Positions 57,529 through 64,000 of a stretch of DNA of 64,000 nucleotides are shown here, piece by piece (positions within the stretch are counted from its first letter, which is position 1; the number at the start of each line of letters is the position of its first letter). The position numbers and the translations under genes are program-made. This DNA is from Escherichia coli (lineage in GTDB: Bacteria; Pseudomonadota; Gammaproteobacteria; Enterobacterales; Enterobacteriaceae): assembly GCF_016026235.1 (NCBI RefSeq), contig NZ_CP065613.1; one strand, 5' to 3'. The notes beneath the pieces were generated by a model. It made no database searches. It saw nothing but the letters and a program-made list of their open reading frames with translations, and was not told the origin of the DNA.

Positions 57529-60500
57529 GTGAAAGATTTATTAAAGTTTCTGAAAGCGCAGACTAAAACCGAAGAGTTTGATGCGATCAAAATTGCTCTG
57601 GCTTCGCCAGACATGATCCGTTCATGGTCTTTCGGTGAAGTTAAAAAGCCGGAAACCATCAACTACCGTACGTTCAAACCAGAACGTGACGGCCTTTTCT
57701 GCGCCCGTATCTTTGGGCCGGTAAAAGATTACGAGTGCCTGTGCGGTAAGTACAAGCGCCTGAAACACCGTGGCGTCATCTGTGAGAAGTGCGGCGTTGA
57801 AGTGACCCAGACTAAAGTACGCCGTGAGCGTATGGGCCACATCGAACTGGCTTCCCCGACTGCGCACATCTGGTTCCTGAAATCGCTGCCGTCCCGTATC
57901 GGTCTGCTGCTCGATATGCCGCTGCGCGATATCGAACGCGTACTGTACTTTGAATCCTATGTGGTTATCGAAGGCGGTATGACCAACCTGGAACGTCAGC
58001 AGATCCTGACTGAAGAGCAGTATCTGGACGCGCTGGAAGAGTTCGGTGACGAATTCGACGCGAAGATGGGTGCGGAAGCAATCCAGGCTCTGCTGAAGAG
58101 CATGGATCTGGAGCAAGAGTGCGAACAGCTGCGTGAAGAGCTGAACGAAACCAACTCCGAAACCAAGCGTAAAAAGCTGACCAAGCGTATCAAACTGCTG
58201 GAAGCGTTCGTTCAGTCTGGTAACAAACCAGAGTGGATGATCCTGACCGTTCTGCCGGTACTGCCGCCAGATCTGCGTCCGCTGGTTCCACTGGATGGTG
58301 GTCGTTTCGCGACTTCTGACCTGAACGATCTGTATCGTCGCGTCATTAACCGTAACAACCGTCTGAAACGTCTGCTGGATCTGGCTGCGCCGGACATCAT
58401 CGTACGTAACGAAAAACGTATGCTGCAGGAAGCGGTAGACGCCCTGCTGGATAACGGTCGTCGCGGTCGTGCGATCACCGGTTCTAACAAGCGTCCTCTG
58501 AAATCTTTGGCCGACATGATCAAAGGTAAACAGGGTCGTTTCCGTCAGAACCTGCTCGGTAAGCGTGTTGACTACTCCGGTCGTTCTGTAATCACCGTAG
58601 GTCCATACCTGCGTCTGCATCAGTGCGGTCTGCCGAAGAAAATGGCGCTGGAGCTGTTCAAACCGTTCATCTACGGCAAGCTGGAACTGCGTGGTCTTGC
58701 TACCACCATTAAAGCTGCGAAGAAAATGGTTGAGCGCGAAGAAGCTGTCGTTTGGGATATCCTGGACGAAGTTATCCGCGAACACCCGGTACTGCTGAAC
58801 CGTGCACCGACTCTGCACCGTCTGGGTATCCAGGCATTTGAACCGGTACTGATCGAAGGTAAAGCTATCCAGCTGCACCCGCTGGTTTGTGCGGCATATA
58901 ACGCCGACTTCGATGGTGACCAGATGGCTGTTCACGTACCGCTGACGCTGGAAGCCCAGCTGGAAGCGCGTGCGCTGATGATGTCTACCAACAACATCCT
59001 GTCCCCGGCGAACGGCGAACCAATCATCGTTCCGTCTCAGGACGTTGTTCTGGGTCTGTACTATATGACCCGTGACTGTGTTAACGCCAAAGGCGAAGGC
59101 ATGGTGCTGACTGGCCCGAAAGAAGCAGAACGTCTGTATCGCTCTGGTCTGGCTTCTCTGCATGCGCGCGTTAAAGTGCGTATCACCGAGTATGAAAAAG
59201 ATGCAAACGGTGAATTAGTAGCGAAAACCAGCCTGAAAGACACGACTGTTGGCCGTGCCATTCTGTGGATGATTGTACCGAAAGGTCTGCCTTACTCCAT
59301 CGTCAACCAGGCGCTGGGTAAAAAAGCAATCTCCAAAATGCTGAACACCTGCTACCGCATTCTCGGTCTGAAACCGACCGTTATTTTTGCGGACCAGATC
59401 ATGTACACCGGCTTCGCCTATGCAGCGCGTTCTGGTGCATCTGTTGGTATCGATGACATGGTCATCCCGGAGAAGAAACACGAAATCATCTCCGAGGCAG
59501 AAGCAGAAGTTGCTGAAATTCAGGAGCAGTTCCAGTCTGGTCTGGTAACTGCGGGCGAACGCTACAACAAAGTTATCGATATCTGGGCTGCGGCGAACGA
59601 TCGTGTATCCAAAGCGATGATGGATAACCTGCAAACTGAAACCGTGATTAACCGTGACGGTCAGGAAGAGAAGCAGGTTTCCTTCAACAGCATCTACATG
59701 ATGGCCGACTCCGGTGCGCGTGGTTCTGCGGCACAGATTCGTCAGCTTGCTGGTATGCGTGGTCTGATGGCGAAGCCGGATGGCTCCATCATCGAAACGC
59801 CAATCACCGCGAACTTCCGTGAAGGTCTGAACGTACTCCAGTACTTCATCTCCACCCACGGTGCTCGTAAAGGTCTGGCGGATACCGCACTGAAAACTGC
59901 GAACTCCGGTTACCTGACTCGTCGTCTGGTTGACGTGGCGCAGGACCTGGTGGTTACCGAAGACGATTGTGGTACCCATGAAGGTATCATGATGACTCCG
60001 GTTATCGAGGGTGGTGACGTTAAAGAGCCGCTGCGCGATCGCGTACTGGGTCGTGTAACTGCTGAAGACGTTCTGAAGCCGGGTACTGCTGATATCCTCG
60101 TTCCGCGCAACACGCTGCTGCACGAACAGTGGTGTGACCTGCTGGAAGAGAACTCTGTCGACGCGGTTAAAGTACGTTCTGTTGTATCTTGTGACACCGA
60201 CTTTGGTGTATGTGCGCACTGCTACGGTCGTGACCTGGCGCGTGGCCACATCATCAACAAGGGTGAAGCAATCGGTGTTATCGCGGCACAGTCCATCGGT
60301 GAACCGGGTACACAGCTGACCATGCGTACGTTCCACATCGGTGGTGCGGCATCTCGTGCGGCTGCTGAATCCAGCATCCAGGTGAAAAACAAAGGTAGCA
60401 TCAAGCTCAGCAACGTGAAGTCGGTTGTGAACTCCAGCGGTAAACTGGTTATCACTTCCCGTAATACTGAACTGAAACTGATCGACGAATTCGGTCGTAC

Positions 60501-61752
60501 CAAAGAAAGCTACAAAGTGCCTTACGGTGCGGTACTGGCGAAAGGCGATGGCGAACAGGTTGCTGGCGGCGAAACCGTTGCAAACTGGGACCCGCACACC
60601 ATGCCGGTTATCACCGAAGTAAGCGGTTTTGTACGCTTTACTGACATGATCGACGGTCAGACCATTACTCGTCAGACAGACGAATTGACCGGTCTGTCTT
60701 CGCTGGTGGTTCTGGATTCCGCAGAACGTACCGCAGGTGGTAAAGATCTGCGTCCGGCACTGAAAATCGTTGATGCTCAGGGTAACGACGTTCTGATCCC
60801 AGGTACCGATATGCCTGCGCAGTACTTCCTGCCGGGTAAAGCGATTGTTCAGCTGGAAGATGGCGTACAGATCAGCTCTGGTGACACCCTGGCGCGTATT
60901 CCGCAGGAATCCGGCGGTACCAAGGACATCACCGGTGGTCTGCCGCGCGTTGCGGACCTGTTCGAAGCACGTCGTCCGAAAGAGCCGGCAATCCTGGCTG
61001 AAATCAGCGGTATCGTTTCCTTCGGTAAAGAAACCAAAGGTAAACGTCGTCTGGTTATCACCCCGGTAGACGGTAGCGATCCGTACGAAGAGATGATTCC
61101 GAAATGGCGTCAGCTCAACGTGTTCGAAGGTGAACGTGTAGAACGTGGTGACGTAATTTCCGACGGTCCGGAAGCGCCGCACGACATTCTGCGTCTGCGT
61201 GGTGTTCATGCTGTGACTCGTTACATCGTTAACGAAGTACAGGACGTATACCGTCTGCAGGGCGTTAAGATTAACGATAAACACATCGAAGTTATCGTTC
61301 GTCAGATGCTGCGTAAAGCTACCATCGTTAACGCGGGCAGCTCCGACTTCCTGGAAGGCGAACAGGTTGAATACTCTCGCGTCAAGATCGCAAACCGCGA
61401 ACTGGAAGCGAACGGCAAAGTGGGTGCAACTTACTCCCGCGATCTGCTGGGTATCACCAAAGCGTCTCTGGCAACCGAGTCCTTCATCTCCGCGGCATCG
61501 TTCCAGGAGACCACTCGCGTGCTGACCGAAGCAGCCGTTGCGGGCAAACGCGACGAACTGCGCGGCCTGAAAGAGAACGTTATCGTGGGTCGTCTGATCC
61601 CGGCAGGTACCGGTTACGCGTACCACCAGGATCGTATGCGTCGCCGTGCTGCGGGTGAAGCTCCGGCTGCACCGCAGGTGACTGCAGAAGACGCATCTGC
61701 CAGCCTGGCAGAACTGCTGAACGCAGGTCTGGGCGGTTCTGATAACGAGTAA
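57529..61752 (+). CDS. rpoC: DNA-directed RNA polymerase beta-prime subunit
   Basis: 1407 aa ORF with GTG start (gtgaaagatttattaaag), NADFDGD active-site motif. Confidence 0.97.
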
Positions 61753-61773
61753 TCGTTAATCCGCAAATAACGT

Positions 61774-61801
61774 AAAAACCCGCTTCGGCGGGTTTTTTTA
61801 T
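61774..61801 (+). terminator. Rho-independent terminator after rpoC
   Basis: aacccgc-ttcg-gcgggtt hairpin followed by tttttttat. Confidence 0.7.
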
Positions 61802-61964
61802 GGGGGGAGTTTAGGGAAAGAGCATTTGTCAGAATATTTAAGGAATTTCTGAATACTCATAATCAATGTAGAGATGACTAATATCCTGAAACTGACTGAA
61901 CTAATTGAGTCAAACTCGGCAAGGATTCGATACTATTCCTGTGTAACTTTCTTAAGGAACGAGA

Positions 61965-62504
61965 ATGAAACAGGAAGTGGAAAAGTGGCGACCTTTTGGA
62001 CATCCGGATGGTGATATTCGTGATTTATCATTTCTTGATGCTCATCAGGCTGTCTACGTTCAGCATCATGAGGGCAAAGAGCCTTTAGAGTATCGCTTTT
62101 GGGTTACCTACTCTCTTCACTGCTTCACAAAAGATTATGAACATCAGACGAACGAAGAAAAACAATCGTTAATGTACCACGCGCCTAAAGAATCTCGTCC
62201 CTTCTGCCAGCACCGTTATAACTTAGCGCGCACACACTTAAAAAGAACTATTTTGGCGCTGCCAGAAAGCAACGTTATTCATGCCGGGTATGGTAGCTAT
62301 GCCGTGATTGAGGTGGACTTAGACGGAGGAGATAAGGCATTTTACTTTGTTGCGTTCAGGGCTTTCAGGGAAAAGAAAAAACTCCGTTTGCATGTAACTA
62401 GCGCTTATCCCATTTCTGAAAAACAGAAAGGTAAATCAGTGAAATTTTTCACCATTGCCTACAACTTATTGAGAAATAAGCAGCTTCCTCAGCCCTCAAA
62501 ATAA
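61965..62504 (+). CDS. yjaZ: Uncharacterised protein YjaZ (formerly HtrC)
   Basis: 179 aa ORF, same length and position as K-12 yjaZ. Confidence 0.85.
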   Translation: MKQEVEKWRPFGHPDGDIRDLSFLDAHQAVYVQHHEGKEPLEYRFWVTYSLHCFTKDYEHQTNEEKQSLMYHAPKESRPFCQHRYNLARTHLKRTILALPESNVIHAGYGSYAVIEVDLDGGDKAFYFVAFRAFREKKKLRLHVTSAYPISEKQKGKSVKFFTIAYNLLRNKQLPQPSK

Positions 62505-62913
62505 CAAAACCCACCTTAAGGTGGGTTTCGCCAGAGAATTATCTCTGGTATTCAGAACGCCATTACCGGACTTTGCCTTGACCTTGCGATAATCGCAGGT
62601 TGCGGGATGTCTGAATTTCTTCAGTCTGCTGCATCCTGGAAGATGAGAACATGTGTTCTTATTTTCGTCTCTATCATAGTTGAGTATTTACTCTCTTACA
62701 ATCAGATCTCTTTCATTGCTCAACAGGCGATGGCTTCAGACTTTGCATTACGGAATTTTTAAGAAAGGCAGGGCGAAACGAGGAAGAAGCTTTTCGCCCT
62801 GGACAACATTCCTGCTGACGGCACTACCATAAAAAAACAGAACGCTTTCAACAACCTTGCGTTTTTCATCTTCCGTAGCGGCTCGGAATAAATTTACGTT
62901 CTTACATTCCGTC

Positions 62914-64000
62914 TCATAGTCTTTGCGAGGCCCGTCCCAGATAGCTGTCCCAGTCTTTCCATACCGGCTGCAAACCCTGAGCGGTTAACGCGGCAGCAAC
63001 CGCTTCCGGTCTGCGATCGTCGTGCGGTGAGAACTGTTCCAACTCGGGGTGATTATCGGCATAGCCACCTGGCTGCGTTTTCGAGAAGGCGCTGACGTTA
63101 TTGATCGCCAGCGGAATAACGCGATCGCGAAACCACGGTGATTCCCGCGTGGAGAGTGACAGTTCAATCTCCGGTGCAAGCAGTCGGAAGGCGCAGATGG
63201 TTTGCACTAACTGGCGTTCATCCATAATCGACGCAGGCTCAATGCCGCCAGTACACGGGCGCAGGCGCGGAAAGGAGACAGAGTAACGGCTTTGCCAGTA
63301 ATGCTGTTGCAGCCATAGCAAATGTTCGGCAACCATATAGCAGTCAACGCGCCAGTTGTCGGAAAGGCCAATTAGCGCGCCGAGGCCTATCTTATCAATC
63401 CCCGCACGCCCCAGCCGATCCGGCGTTTCCAGCCGCCAGAAGAAGTCCTGTTTTTTGCCTTTCAGATGATGGCGGGCATAAGTCGCCTCGTGATATGTCT
63501 CCTGATAAACCATCACGCCATCCAGACCAAGCTGCTTTAACTCGGCGTATTCCGTCTCCGCCAGCGGTTGCACTTCCATTTGTAGTGAAGAGAACTGTTC
63601 ACGCAGGGCGGGGAGATGACGACGAAAGTAATCCATCCCCACTTTCGCCTGATGTTCACCAGTGACTAATAGCAGATGTTCAAAGCCCATCTCCCGTATA
63701 GCGGCGCTTTCCCTGGCAATATCCGCTTCATCCAGCGTTTTGCGCTTGATGCGATTACTCATGGAAAATCCGCAGTACGTGCAGTCGTTAGCGCAAAGAT
63801 TGGAAAGATAAAGCGGGACGTAGAAACTAACTGTGTTGCCAAATCGCTGACGGGTCAGACGCTGCGCCCGTTGGGCCAGTTGTTCCAGATAGCCACTGGC
63901 GGCTGGCGATAACAGCGCCATCATATCGTCGCGGGTGAATTGCGAGGCATTTAGCGCCCGCTCTACGTCAACAGCCGTTTTGCCGTTGATACGCAGGCGG
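62914..64000 (-). CDS. thiH: 2-iminoacetate synthase (thiamine biosynthesis, radical SAM), 5' end outside the window
   Basis: ORF 62914..63924 (MMALLSPAAS...) with radical-SAM CANDCTYCGF motif; K-12 ThiH is 377 aa as I recall, so the true start lies beyond position 64000. Confidence 0.85.
   Translation of the reverse strand, partial: RLRINGKTAVDVERALNASQFTRDDMMALLSPAASGYLEQLAQRAQRLTRQRFGNTVSFYVPLYLSNLCANDCTYCGFSMSNRIKRKTLDEADIARESAAIREMGFEHLLLVTGEHQAKVGMDYFRRHLPALREQFSSLQMEVQPLAETEYAELKQLGLDGVMVYQETYHEATYARHHLKGKKQDFFWRLETPDRLGRAGIDKIGLGALIGLSDNWRVDCYMVAEHLLWLQQHYWQSRYSVSFPRLRPCTGGIEPASIMDERQLVQTICAFRLLAPEIELSLSTRESPWFRDRVIPLAINNVSAFSKTQPGGYADNHPELEQFSPHDDRRPEAVAAALTAQGLQPVWKDWDSYLGRASQRL

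What the first reader, a model, noticed from the sequence alone, without database searches (positions are those of the whole stretch)
62505..62913. yjaZ-thiH convergent intergenic region of about 410 bp, a candidate small RNA locus
The gap between the convergent yjaZ and thiH genes is long for a pure terminator region and contains no ORF of convincing length. From memory, a small RNA (sroH) has been reported between these genes in K-12, but I cannot place its ends from sequence alone, so I did not list it as a feature.
Basis: established knowledge. Interest (0 to 1): 0.15.

Follow-up and report, generated by a model that had tools for sequence, protein, structure and literature searches.

The report
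SroH small RNA, partner of YjaZ
The gap holds the already annotated E. coli small RNA gene sroH, but other genomes show that this RNA is highly structured and travels with the neighbouring yjaZ gene on plasmids and chromosomes from enterobacteria to cyanobacteria, which gives a testable lead to a function unknown for twenty years.

Summary
The yjaZ/thiH gap (62505-62913, 409 nt) contains sroH at 62506-62666 on the minus strand: Rfam RF00372 at 201 bits, identical to K-12 b4691. It has its own sigma-70 promoter and a terminator that abuts the yjaZ stop codon. The remaining 62750-62913 is the thi operon's 3' region. As a locus this is already known.

The wider pattern appears unreported in the literature I could search. 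yjaZ plus sroH form a ~935-bp two-gene cassette that is absent from 31% of E. coli genomes. The same protein/RNA pair occurs on ColE1-type, IncF and P1-like plasmids and in chromosomes of Aeromonas, Pseudomonas, Vibrio, methanotrophs and many cyanobacteria. Every YjaZ homologue with sequence beyond its stop codon (about 60 loci) has the RNA next to it. A divergent protein subfamily carries a correspondingly divergent RNA.

The RNA has five covarying helices and a pseudoknot, none annotated in Rfam except the terminator. The protein gene is often lost or broken while the RNA is kept (O157:H7; about 15% of metagenomic copies). The reverse was not seen.

Best reading: SroH is the dedicated RNA partner of YjaZ, most likely neutralising it, like a type III toxin-antitoxin pair. 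This mechanism is inferred, not shown.

The parts
62506..62666 (-). sroH gene as annotated in K-12 (161 nt). The 5' 29 nt (62666-62638) are a leader specific to E. coli-type copies. The conserved core starts at about 62637.
   Evidence: Rfam RF00372, 201.1 bits. K-12 b4691. My covariance model R1 matches 62503-62642 at 129.8 bits. In most homologues the -10 box ends 8-9 nt before GGAUG, so they lack the leader.
62673..62701 (-). sroH promoter: -35 TTGTAA (62701-62696), 17-nt spacer, -10 TATGAT (62678-62673).
   Evidence: This is the only sigma-70-like site found in 62400-63000. It ends 6 nt upstream of the annotated 5' end at 62666.
62605..62636 (-). P1 (GGAUG 62636-62632 with CAUCC 62609-62605) encloses the invariant internal loop CAGCAGA (62631-62625) and hairpin P1.1 (62624-62611).
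   Evidence: P1 pairs covary (GC/AU and AU/GC). Four of five P1.1 pairs show compensatory changes. RNAalifold recovers both helices on an alignment that was not fitted to the structure.
62558..62604 (-). Three-way junction. Px (CGC 62604-62602 with GCG 62560-62558) closes P2 (62600-62581) and the mini-hairpin P3 (62577-62568). The invariant GGUAA lies at 62567-62563.
   Evidence: Px pair types are UA:25 CG:17 GC:1 and GC:36 AU:6. The P2 stem varies in length and sequence but always pairs. ACC could alternatively pair with the distal GGU.
62553..62556 (-). 3' strand (UCUG) of a pseudoknot with CAGA (62628-62625) in the P1 internal loop.
   Evidence: The pair A-U changes to C-G and to G-C in two sequences. 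All 17 type-2 RNAs change CAGA/UCUG to CAGG/CCUG.
62531..62548 (-). Hairpin P4 (CCAGAGA/UCUCUGG).
   Evidence: All seven pairs show compensatory changes.
62495..62528 (-). Terminator hairpin P5 (AAACCCACC UUAA GGUGGGUUU) followed by UUUUGUUAUUUU. The run overlaps the yjaZ stop codon (TAA, 62502-62504, on the plus strand).
   Evidence: Sequence. Five of six pairs covary. The stop codon sits 3-4 nt from the hairpin in all type-1 loci. A U-run follows the hairpin only in the sroH direction.
61965..62504 (+). yjaZ (formerly htrC): 179 aa, basic (pI 9.3). It is the protein half of the cassette.
   Evidence: ORF. NCBIfam NF007263. Pfam PF27200 'YjaZ'. AF2 model with pLDDT 89. pI.
61808..62745 (.). 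The yjaZ-sroH cassette (about 935 bp), present or absent as a unit between the rpoC terminator and the thi 3' region. Boundaries are good to about 10 nt.
   Evidence: Alignment with E. coli E1, which has about 45 bp here instead. sroH occurs in 3739 and yjaZ in 3737 of 5426 E. coli genomes.
62755..62803 (-). Probable thiCEFSGH terminator: a 10-bp stem (GGGCGAAA.../...UUUCGCCC, 62803-62769) followed by CCUUUCUUAAAAAUU. It is not part of the cassette.
   Evidence: Predicted hairpin. The region 62750-62913 is conserved in E. coli strains that lack yjaZ-sroH. The terminator scan missed it because the loop exceeds 8 nt.

Best explanation
The interval contains sroH, a known 161-nt RNA. It is transcribed from its own promoter toward yjaZ and ends at a hairpin that abuts the yjaZ stop codon (shown). 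SroH is not an isolated E. coli riboregulator. It is the RNA half of an autonomous, horizontally mobile two-gene cassette, yjaZ plus sroH. The cassette is conserved from Enterobacterales to cyanobacteria, and the RNA has a compact fold with several helices and a pseudoknot, with invariant loop and junction nucleotides (shown). From this I infer that SroH works with YjaZ itself. Most likely it binds YjaZ and keeps it inactive, as the RNA antitoxin does in a type III toxin-antitoxin or abortive-infection pair. A strong constitutive promoter would supply the RNA, and PAP I-dependent decay would make it short-lived, so that YjaZ is released when transcription of the cassette stops. YjaZ is a basic protein with a weak RelE/ParE-like structural resemblance. 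The 3'-end overlap with yjaZ may add antisense or transcription-interference control. My probabilities: identity as sroH 0.99; functional coupling to YjaZ 0.85; direct RNA-protein neutralisation about 0.4.
For: Identity: Rfam at 201 bits, the K-12 annotation and the promoter.

Linkage starting from the protein: sroH lies convergent to and directly after yjaZ on seven plasmids of five genera, including a 2462-bp ColE1-type plasmid whose only cargo is this pair. In 56 genome loci found through YjaZ, 44 carry a strong RNA match (91-135 bits), 11 a divergent full-length match, and 5 more a match once search filters are off. All are in the same position.

Co-divergence: the 26-37%-identical protein subfamily has an RNA with the same architecture but a different sequence.

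Structure: 98.3% of cells are paired, against 84.8% in shuffles. 21 of 35 pairs show compensatory change, 0 of 500 shuffles reach the observed values, and slid controls give 32-48%. RNAalifold agrees on an unfitted alignment.

Strand: 28 G.U cells against 3 A.C cells.

Promoter: TTGACA/TATAAT-like boxes end 8-9 nt before P1 in about 26 of 44 loci.

Asymmetric loss: 18 complete RNAs retain only the last yjaZ codons. The O55:H7/O157:H7 lineage deletes the most conserved YjaZ motif yet keeps sroH 100% identical. The one checked E. coli strain with a disrupted sroH (IS1) also has a frameshifted yjaZ. Within E. coli, sroH is at least 99% identical in 3733 of 3741 matching records, but yjaZ in only 2942 of 3737.

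Overlap is not obligatory: in Thiomargarita the RNA with its terminator lies upstream of yjaZ on the same strand.

Literature: the function of SroH is unknown, it is polyadenylated and accumulates in a pcnB mutant, and its deletion causes sensitivity to envelope stress (PMC5389530). It is not an established Hfq target (bioRxiv 10.1101/2020.06.29.178624).
Against: There is no direct evidence that SroH binds YjaZ or that YjaZ is toxic. The sroH deletion strain of K-12 is viable (reported in PMC5389530), which a potent toxin would not allow unless yjaZ is weakly expressed.

The RelE-like resemblance is weak. Foldseek's best hit is E = 0.11, hhalign against YoeB gives nothing, and a PDB profile search gives nothing. 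YjaZ has no PADLOC hit.

SroH has none of the tandem repeats of known type III antitoxins.

Asymmetric loss would also follow if the RNA were the useful part and the protein merely its helper. The covariation alignment was fitted to the model, although one search was not. The tandem arrangement rests on a single metagenome-assembled genome.
Confidence: 0.45

Rival explanations
1. SroH is a cis-antisense regulator of yjaZ, with the layout of type I systems that overlap at their 3' ends. yjaZ transcription would read through the hairpin, which has no U-run in that direction. The resulting 3' UTR would be complementary to all of SroH. Pairing, or collision of polymerases from the strong sroH promoter, would then lower yjaZ expression. 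No RNA-protein contact would be needed.
For: The convergent layout, with the RNA's 3' end 0-4 nt from the yjaZ stop codon, is kept in 43 of 44 type-1 loci and in all type-2 loci. After the hairpin the yjaZ strand reads UUUCGCC or CUUCGCC, which is a poor terminator.
Against: An antisense RNA does not need sequence conserved across phyla, invariant loops, a three-way junction or a pseudoknot. In Thiomargarita the RNA is not antisense to yjaZ at all. RNAs persist intact where yjaZ is deleted.
Confidence: 0.2
2. SroH is an ordinary trans-acting base-pairing sRNA of E. coli that regulates host mRNAs, for example kbl or envelope functions. Its position next to yjaZ would reflect only shared descent on one small island.
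For: In-vitro binding of SroH to kbl mRNA (PMC6172242). Enrichment in Hfq PAR-CLIP (bioRxiv 10.1101/2020.06.29.178624). Envelope-stress phenotype of the deletion (PMC5389530). Induction in stationary phase (bioRxiv 10.64898/2025.12.22.696124).
Against: The same RNA is conserved in cyanobacteria, methanotrophs and on small plasmids, where E. coli targets do not exist, and it is always beside yjaZ. The conserved 'single-stranded' stretches are engaged in a pseudoknot and junctions. Overexpression had no effect on biofilm, motility or fimbriae (PMC4606813). Hfq binding is not established.
Confidence: 0.1
3. The RNA is the effector: a ligand-sensing or catalytic RNA, or an RNA delivered to or acting on a cellular machine. 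YjaZ would be its helper, for processing, stabilising or loading, rather than a toxin.
For: The RNA is conserved more strongly than the protein within E. coli. RNA-only loci exist. The conservation of junction nucleotides resembles that of a riboswitch. Processed forms of SroH are reported (PMC5389530).
Against: No Rfam ribozyme or riboswitch family matches. No gene lies downstream in the same transcription unit for the RNA to regulate in cis. Nothing points to a ligand.
Confidence: 0.15

Closest known systems
SroH (Rfam RF00372; E. coli K-12 b4691)
   Same: It is this gene: same sequence, position and strand.
   Different: Rfam models only the terminator hairpin as structure (CS line). Its gathering score of 80 bits excludes most copies outside Enterobacterales, which score 54-83 bits. 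The link to YjaZ, the multi-helix pseudoknotted fold and the occurrence across phyla are not part of the family as described in the sources I could read.
Type III toxin-antitoxin / abortive-infection systems (ToxIN, CptIN, TenpIN)
   Same: A protein gene is paired with a dedicated, structured (pseudoknotted), constitutively made RNA. The two-gene unit is autonomous and found on plasmids and islands. Loss is asymmetric in favour of keeping the RNA. One locus has the RNA-terminator-protein order.
   Different: SroH has no tandem repeats. The usual layout is convergent rather than tandem. YjaZ is unrelated in sequence to ToxN, CptN or TenpN and has no PADLOC hit. Toxicity and binding are untested.
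Type I toxin-antitoxin loci with convergent genes overlapping at the 3' end (txpA/RatA and bsrG/SR4 of B. subtilis; par/fst of pAD1). Recalled from memory.
   Same: Convergent transcription of the protein gene and the RNA gene, with a shared hairpin at their 3' ends.
   Different: Those toxins are small hydrophobic peptides, whereas YjaZ is a 179-aa basic soluble protein. Those antisense RNAs are not conserved in sequence across phyla.
RelE/ParE superfamily toxins (for YjaZ)
   Different: YjaZ is twice their size. Foldseek is not significant. There is no profile similarity. Those toxins have protein antitoxins.
Bacterial Y RNA / Rsr (Ro60) modules. Recalled from memory.
   Same: A structured non-coding RNA is encoded next to the protein it binds, with a patchy, horizontally spread distribution.
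   Different: The protein family and RNA fold are unrelated. No Rfam Y RNA hit was found.

Membership tests
Rfam RF00372 sroH | Covariance-model score at or above the curated gathering score (80 bits) over the full model | tested here: met
   201.1 bits, model positions 1-161, E = 1.3e-50, at 62506-62666 on the minus strand.
Rfam RF00372 sroH | Same locus as K-12 b4691, between yjaZ and thiH on the thiH strand | tested here: met
   NC_000913.3 4190327-4190487 (minus strand) maps onto 62506-62666 with an offset of 4127821.
Rfam RF00372 sroH | A discrete transcript of about 160 nt | not testable with these tools
   Only literature is available: full-length and processed SroH were detected and the primary transcript is polyadenylated (PMC5389530), and a Northern blot signal rises in stationary phase (bioRxiv 10.64898/2025.12.22.696124).
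Type III toxin-antitoxin systems (ToxIN/CptIN/TenpIN) | The toxin belongs to the ToxN/AbiQ, CptN or TenpN families | tested here: not met
   YjaZ has no hit in the Pfam copy searched, no PADLOC hit and no PHROG hit. Its only matches are NCBIfam NF007263 and PF27200 'YjaZ'.
Type III toxin-antitoxin systems (ToxIN/CptIN/TenpIN) | The antitoxin is an array of short tandem repeats upstream of the toxin on the same strand, separated from it by a terminator | tested here: not met
   No tandem repeat in 61750-63000. The RNA is a single unit, convergent with yjaZ. Only L035 has the RNA-terminator-yjaZ order.
Type III toxin-antitoxin systems (ToxIN/CptIN/TenpIN) | The RNA binds the protein directly and neutralises it; the protein alone is toxic | not testable with these tools
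   Support is indirect only: strict co-occurrence, co-divergence and loss of the protein but not of the RNA.
Type I toxin-antitoxin systems (3'-overlapping class) | The toxin is a small hydrophobic membrane peptide | tested here: not met
   YjaZ is 179 aa with pI 9.3. Its model is a beta-sheet/helix globular fold with pLDDT 89.
Type I toxin-antitoxin systems (3'-overlapping class) | The RNA is antisense to the toxin mRNA | tested here: inconclusive
   The annotated genes overlap by only 0-4 nt at the stop codon. Read-through of the hairpin in the yjaZ direction is plausible because no U-run follows it, but this is unmeasured.
Hfq-dependent trans-acting base-pairing sRNAs | Established Hfq binding and a conserved accessible seed that pairs with target mRNAs | tested here: inconclusive
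   SroH is described as not an established Hfq target although enriched in PAR-CLIP (bioRxiv 10.1101/2020.06.29.178624). The conserved stretches take part in a pseudoknot and junctions. A motif shared with the yjaZ 5' region is not conserved.
RelE/ParE toxin superfamily (YjaZ protein) | Significant fold or profile similarity to RelE/ParE-type toxins | tested here: inconclusive
Cis-regulatory RNA (riboswitch or leader) | A regulated gene lies downstream in the same transcription unit | tested here: not met
   A terminator follows the RNA at once, and the next gene (yjaZ) is on the other strand.

The most novel reading that the evidence does not exclude
YjaZ-SroH is a previously unrecognised class of protein-RNA toxin-antitoxin or defence module. 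In it a single, non-repetitive, pseudoknotted RNA of about 125 nt directly neutralises (or gates) a RelE-like basic protein. The module is spread by plasmids, phage-plasmids and small islands across Proteobacteria and Cyanobacteria, and E. coli's orphan sRNA SroH is its antitoxin.
Probability: 0.35. Interest if true: 0.75.

Novelty: already known. Interest (0 to 1): 0.5.

Why it matters
As a locus it does not matter much, because sroH is annotated in K-12 and in Rfam. What matters is the context. SroH has had no function since its discovery. The data here show that it cannot be understood as an E. coli regulator on its own. It is a deeply conserved, structured RNA bound genetically to YjaZ, a protein whose earlier 'htrC' function was retracted (PMC11551758).

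That turns two 'unknowns' of the K-12 genome into one testable system: toxicity and rescue, RNA-protein binding, plasmid stabilisation, or phage defence. It adds a candidate new architecture to RNA-antitoxin biology. It also shows that the Rfam family's threshold and structure annotation miss most of the family.

Tried and rejected
1. A coding sroH. The 29-aa ORF (62652-62563) starts in the E. coli-specific leader. The ORF from the conserved ATG of GGAUGCAG is 1-51 aa long and often only 4 aa, so I rejected it.
2. A 51-aa hydrophobic ORF antisense to sroH (62607-62762, plus strand), considered as a type I toxin. It is kept only in E. coli chromosomal copies and is 2-20 aa elsewhere. Rejected as a conserved gene.
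3. SroH pairing with, or sharing a protein site with, the yjaZ 5' region through the 10-mer TTCTGAATAC found 119 nt upstream of yjaZ. The motif is absent even from E. coli E69 and from all other loci. Rejected.
4. sroH as a 3'-UTR product of thiH. It has its own promoter, and the cassette boundary and a thi terminator hairpin lie between the two. Rejected.
5. The element acting as DNA, or on the yjaZ strand. There are 28 G.U cells against 3 A.C cells, and the promoter and terminator polarity agree. Rejected.
6. A phage origin. There is no DNA or protein match in 50,697 phage records and no significant viral fold match. The module occurs only in phage-plasmids and five IMG/VR contigs.
7. Other weak Rfam hits in 61700-62604 (rsmX, Trp_leader, rnk_pseudo, Hammerhead_II). 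All are below gathering score and rest on terminator hairpins.
8. A YjaZ function from sequence. Pfam, PADLOC, PHROGs and a PDB profile search gave nothing. afdb50 was unavailable.
9. The single-sequence MFE fold of SroH disagrees with the covariation-supported fold in the centre, so I did not use it.

Full report
1. OBSERVATION

The window is E. coli K-12-like. rpoC occupies 57529-61752, yjaZ 61965-62504 on the plus strand, and thiH ends at 62914 on the minus strand. K-12 coordinates equal window coordinates plus 4127821. Its ORFs are 20-51 aa.

RF00372 sroH matches 62506-62666 on the minus strand at 201.1 bits, against a gathering score of 80, with E = 1.3e-50 over the full model. These are the coordinates of the K-12 ncRNA b4691.

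2. ANATOMY OF THE GAP

sroH lies on the thiH strand but is not a thiH 3' UTR. A TTGTAA-17-TATGAT promoter sits at 62701-62673 and ends 6 nt before the 5' end. It is the only such site in 62400-63000. The 3' end is the hairpin AAACCCACC-UUAA-GGUGGGUUU followed by UUUUGUUAUUUU. The reverse complement of that run contains the yjaZ stop codon.

The thiH-proximal 62750-62913 is present in all E. coli. It contains a 10-bp hairpin (62769-62803) followed by a U-rich stretch, which is probably the thi operon terminator.

3. THE CASSETTE

Only 3729 of 5420 matching E. coli genomes cover the whole 62400-63000 query. The others match only from about 62750 onward. In such a strain (E1), rpoC is followed directly by thiH, with about 45 bp in place of window ~61808-62745.

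sroH is present in 3739 and yjaZ in 3737 of 5426 genomes. So yjaZ, sroH and both promoters form a ~935-bp unit that is present or absent as a whole. The absence of sroH from phylogroups B2 and D was noted before and read as loss (PMC3318445).

4. THE SAME PAIR ELSEWHERE

A DNA search of plasmids found 103 records, from Serratia, Enterobacter, Escherichia, Klebsiella, Citrobacter and others. Their homology to the window always ends about 135 nt beyond the yjaZ stop codon.

In seven loci that I fetched, Rfam finds a full-length sroH (99-160 bits) directly after yjaZ and convergent with it. These loci are:
- P1-like phage-plasmids, where the pair sits between tail genes;
- an IncF plasmid;
- Edwardsiella and Serratia plasmids, next to a resolvase;
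- a 2462-bp ColE1-type plasmid whose only cargo is this pair. 'htrC' had already been listed as ColE1 cargo (PMC5864857).

YjaZ (PF27200, no known function) has homologues at 45-64% identity in Aeromonas, Pseudomonas, Ferrimonas, Psychrobacter, methanotrophs, Thiomargarita and many cyanobacteria. The cyanobacteria include isolate genomes: Planktothrix PCC7821, Calothrix NIES-2100, Nostoc linckia and Tychonema. The superfamily comprises 711 clusters at 50% identity, almost all stand-alone proteins of about 180 aa.

A plain nhmmer profile built from eight enterobacterial sroH copies finds the RNA beside yjaZ in 36 of these loci (E down to 1e-46; cyanobacteria 1e-14 to 1e-19). The Rfam model scores them at 54-83 bits, mostly below its threshold, and no other Rfam family covers them.

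My covariance model R1 finds 44 strong matches (91-135 bits). It also finds 11 weaker full-length matches, and 5 more once search filters are off, next to the distant (26-37% identical) YjaZ-like proteins of Pseudomonas, Pantoea, Erwinia, Enterobacter, Vibrio, Izhakiella and Thermosynechococcus. All are in the same position and orientation. These 'type-2' RNAs keep the architecture with a different sequence. Every protein-anchored locus that has sequence beyond the stop codon therefore has the RNA, although the match in L057 (Pseudoalteromonas) is only weak (E 0.3).

In cyanobacteria the pair is inserted among unrelated housekeeping genes, for example inside a che operon.

5. STRUCTURE

The 44 type-1 RNAs share these elements, in order:
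- P1 (GGAUG/CAUCC);
- an invariant internal loop, CAGCAGA;
- a variable hairpin, P1.1;
- Px (CGU/ACG), which closes a three-way junction with P2 (ACC...GGU, variable) and the mini-hairpin P3;
- invariant GGUAA;
- invariant UUCUGAAUA;
- hairpin P4;
- CGAAG;
- the terminator.

On the model-fitted alignment, 98.3% of cells pair, against 84.8% after shuffling. 21 of 35 pairs show changes on both sides, none of 500 shuffles reaches the observed values, and sliding the partners by 1-3 columns gives 32-48% pairing. RNAalifold on the unfitted MAFFT alignment recovers P1, P1.1, Px, P4 and the terminator. It pairs the invariant ACC with the distal GGU rather than the proximal one, so an alternative pairing cannot be excluded.

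A pseudoknot between CAGA in the P1 loop and UCUG is supported by A-U changing to C-G and to G-C in two sequences. It is also supported by CAGG/CCUG in all 17 type-2 RNAs.

G.U cells outnumber A.C cells 28 to 3, so the functional strand is the one opposite yjaZ.

In about 26 of 44 loci, a near-consensus -35/-10 pair ends 8-9 nt before P1, so the RNA normally starts at the foot of P1. The E. coli chromosomal copy has an extra 29-nt leader.

Rfam annotates only the terminator as structure.

6. WHICH PARTNER IS DISPENSABLE

I also searched from the RNA side, using the pattern GGATGCAGCAGAC N8-38 GACATCCC. It returned 5 viral and 120 metagenome loci, holding 126 RNA copies in total:
- 90 have a convergent yjaZ whose C-terminal end lies 119-292 nt (mode 135, all but three at most 186) from the GGAUG start of the RNA;
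- 12 lie too close to a contig end to tell;
- 18 are complete RNAs (93-135 bits; about nine distinct sequences) without an intact adjacent yjaZ.

Those 18 still carry, after the hairpin, the reverse complement of the last yjaZ codons. This shows that yjaZ was truncated while the RNA was kept.

In E. coli, the O55:H7/O157:H7 lineage has a 71-bp deletion that removes REKKKLRLHVTSAYPISEKQKGK, the most conserved motif, and shifts the reading frame. Its sroH is 100% identical. Only two genomes have a partial sroH. In the one I examined (strain MB15, where IS1 splits sroH at about 62580), yjaZ is itself frameshifted.

sroH is at least 99% identical in 3733 of 3741 matching records. yjaZ reaches that level in only 2942 of 3737.

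7. THE PROTEIN

YjaZ is basic, with pI 9.3 and a family median of 9.2. Nearly invariant residues include R78, R84, H106, E136, K138, R141, H143, S146 and Y148. I treat the RelE-like reading as a lead only.

8. MECHANISM

Shown:
- the identity of sroH;
- its own promoter and terminator;
- its cassette structure with yjaZ;
- cross-phylum co-occurrence and co-divergence;
- a conserved pseudoknotted fold;
- asymmetric loss.

Inferred: SroH acts on or with YjaZ. The most likely form (about 0.4) is direct binding that keeps YjaZ inactive, a type III-like toxin-antitoxin or abortive-infection logic. Several points fit this:
- the autonomous two-gene unit on plasmids, including one whose only cargo is the pair;
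- the strong constitutive promoter;
- PAP I-dependent turnover of SroH (PMC5389530);
- one Thiomargarita locus with the order RNA-terminator-yjaZ on one strand.

Against it, the K-12 sroH deletion is viable (PMC5389530), nothing shows that YjaZ is toxic, and every defining feature of the known type III families that could be tested is not met.

Rivals:
- control by antisense pairing or transcription interference through the 3' overlap (0.2);
- the RNA as effector with YjaZ as helper (0.15);
- a classical trans-acting sRNA, such as kbl binding in vitro (PMC6172242), merely linked to yjaZ (0.1).

9. NOVELTY AND VERDICT

In the literature I could search, SroH remains 'function unknown' (PMC5389530, PMC6172242, PMC11228462) and YjaZ is uncharacterised (PMC11551758). 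No paper I found links the two genes, reports the RNA outside enterobacteria, or describes its fold. One paper even calls sroH the least conserved sRNA between E. coli and Klebsiella (PMC3415461).

I therefore score the locus as already known. I give it a middling interest score because the comparative result turns two orphan K-12 genes into one testable system.

Noticed in passing
window 62365-62435 (yjaZ codons ~135-157); L192 2101-2544: E. coli O55:H7 and O157:H7 genomes carry a 71-bp in-frame-breaking deletion in yjaZ. It removes the family's most conserved motif (REKKKLRLHVTSAYP...), while sroH stays 100% identical. The gene is annotated there as 'hypothetical protein' or 'protein HtrC'.
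   Followed up: yes
L193 (E. coli MB15), corresponding to window ~62580: An IS1 element splits sroH inside hairpin P2. In the same strain yjaZ is annotated as frameshifted.
   Followed up: partly
window 62607-62762 (+): A 51-aa ORF antisense to the sroH 5' part and promoter has a hydrophobic centre (TCVLIFVSIIVEYLL). It is kept in E. coli chromosomal copies only and is 2-20 aa in other homologues. It is not annotated in K-12.
   Followed up: yes
L002 2970-2990 (E. coli E1, rpoC-thiH 'empty' site): The ~45 bp that replace the cassette contain TGTTATTCAGAGGGC. This matches the reverse complement of the sroH-end/yjaZ-stop junction (TGTTATTTTGAGGGC) at 13 of 15 positions. It could be a scar of an older, inverted copy, or it could be chance.
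   Followed up: partly
L035 2635-3525 (Thiomargarita MAG): This is the only locus where the RNA lies upstream of yjaZ on the same strand. It has its own terminator and a ~100-nt insertion in P1.1. No hairpin follows the yjaZ stop codon.
   Followed up: yes
L118 2303-2500 and L174 484-680 (metagenome): A complete SroH-like RNA with yjaZ reduced to a few codons is followed at once by an ORF that starts METQPKNLTVVDLFSGCGG. That looks like motif I of a C5 DNA methyltransferase, which may indicate a defence-island context.
   Followed up: no
L194 1608-1725, L195 2040-2108, L198 553-641: Next to very distant YjaZ-family proteins (profile E 1e-17 to 1e-25), the RNA model gives weak hits (E 0.012-0.37) exactly after the stop codon on the opposite strand. 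This may be a third, shorter RNA type. Three other distant loci (L196, L197, L199) gave nothing.
   Followed up: partly
L148 3361 and 5823 (6.9-kb metagenome contig, coverage ~3984): Two copies of the RNA 5' motif lie on one small, very high-coverage contig, probably a multicopy plasmid.
   Followed up: no
P0211 (1019 aa): A long protein has 17 stretches matching YjaZ positions 28-74, apparently a repeat of the N-terminal beta-hairpin region.
   Followed up: no
E. coli RefSeq genomes, rows: Apart from the curated K-12 record, the listed RefSeq (PGAP) genomes show no annotated feature under a 100%-identical sroH. Copies outside Enterobacterales score below Rfam's 80-bit gathering threshold.
   Followed up: partly
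window 61700-61801: The rpoC terminator region gives several Rfam hits below threshold (rsmX, Trp_leader, istR, STnc370). They rest only on the terminator hairpin AAAAACCCGCTTCGGCGGGTTTTTTT.
   Followed up: yes
window 62830-62880 (-): Between the thiH stop codon and the 62769-62803 hairpin lies a second weak hairpin (AACGC...GCGUU) followed by CUGUUUUUUU. It may be a tandem terminator for the thi operon.
   Followed up: partly
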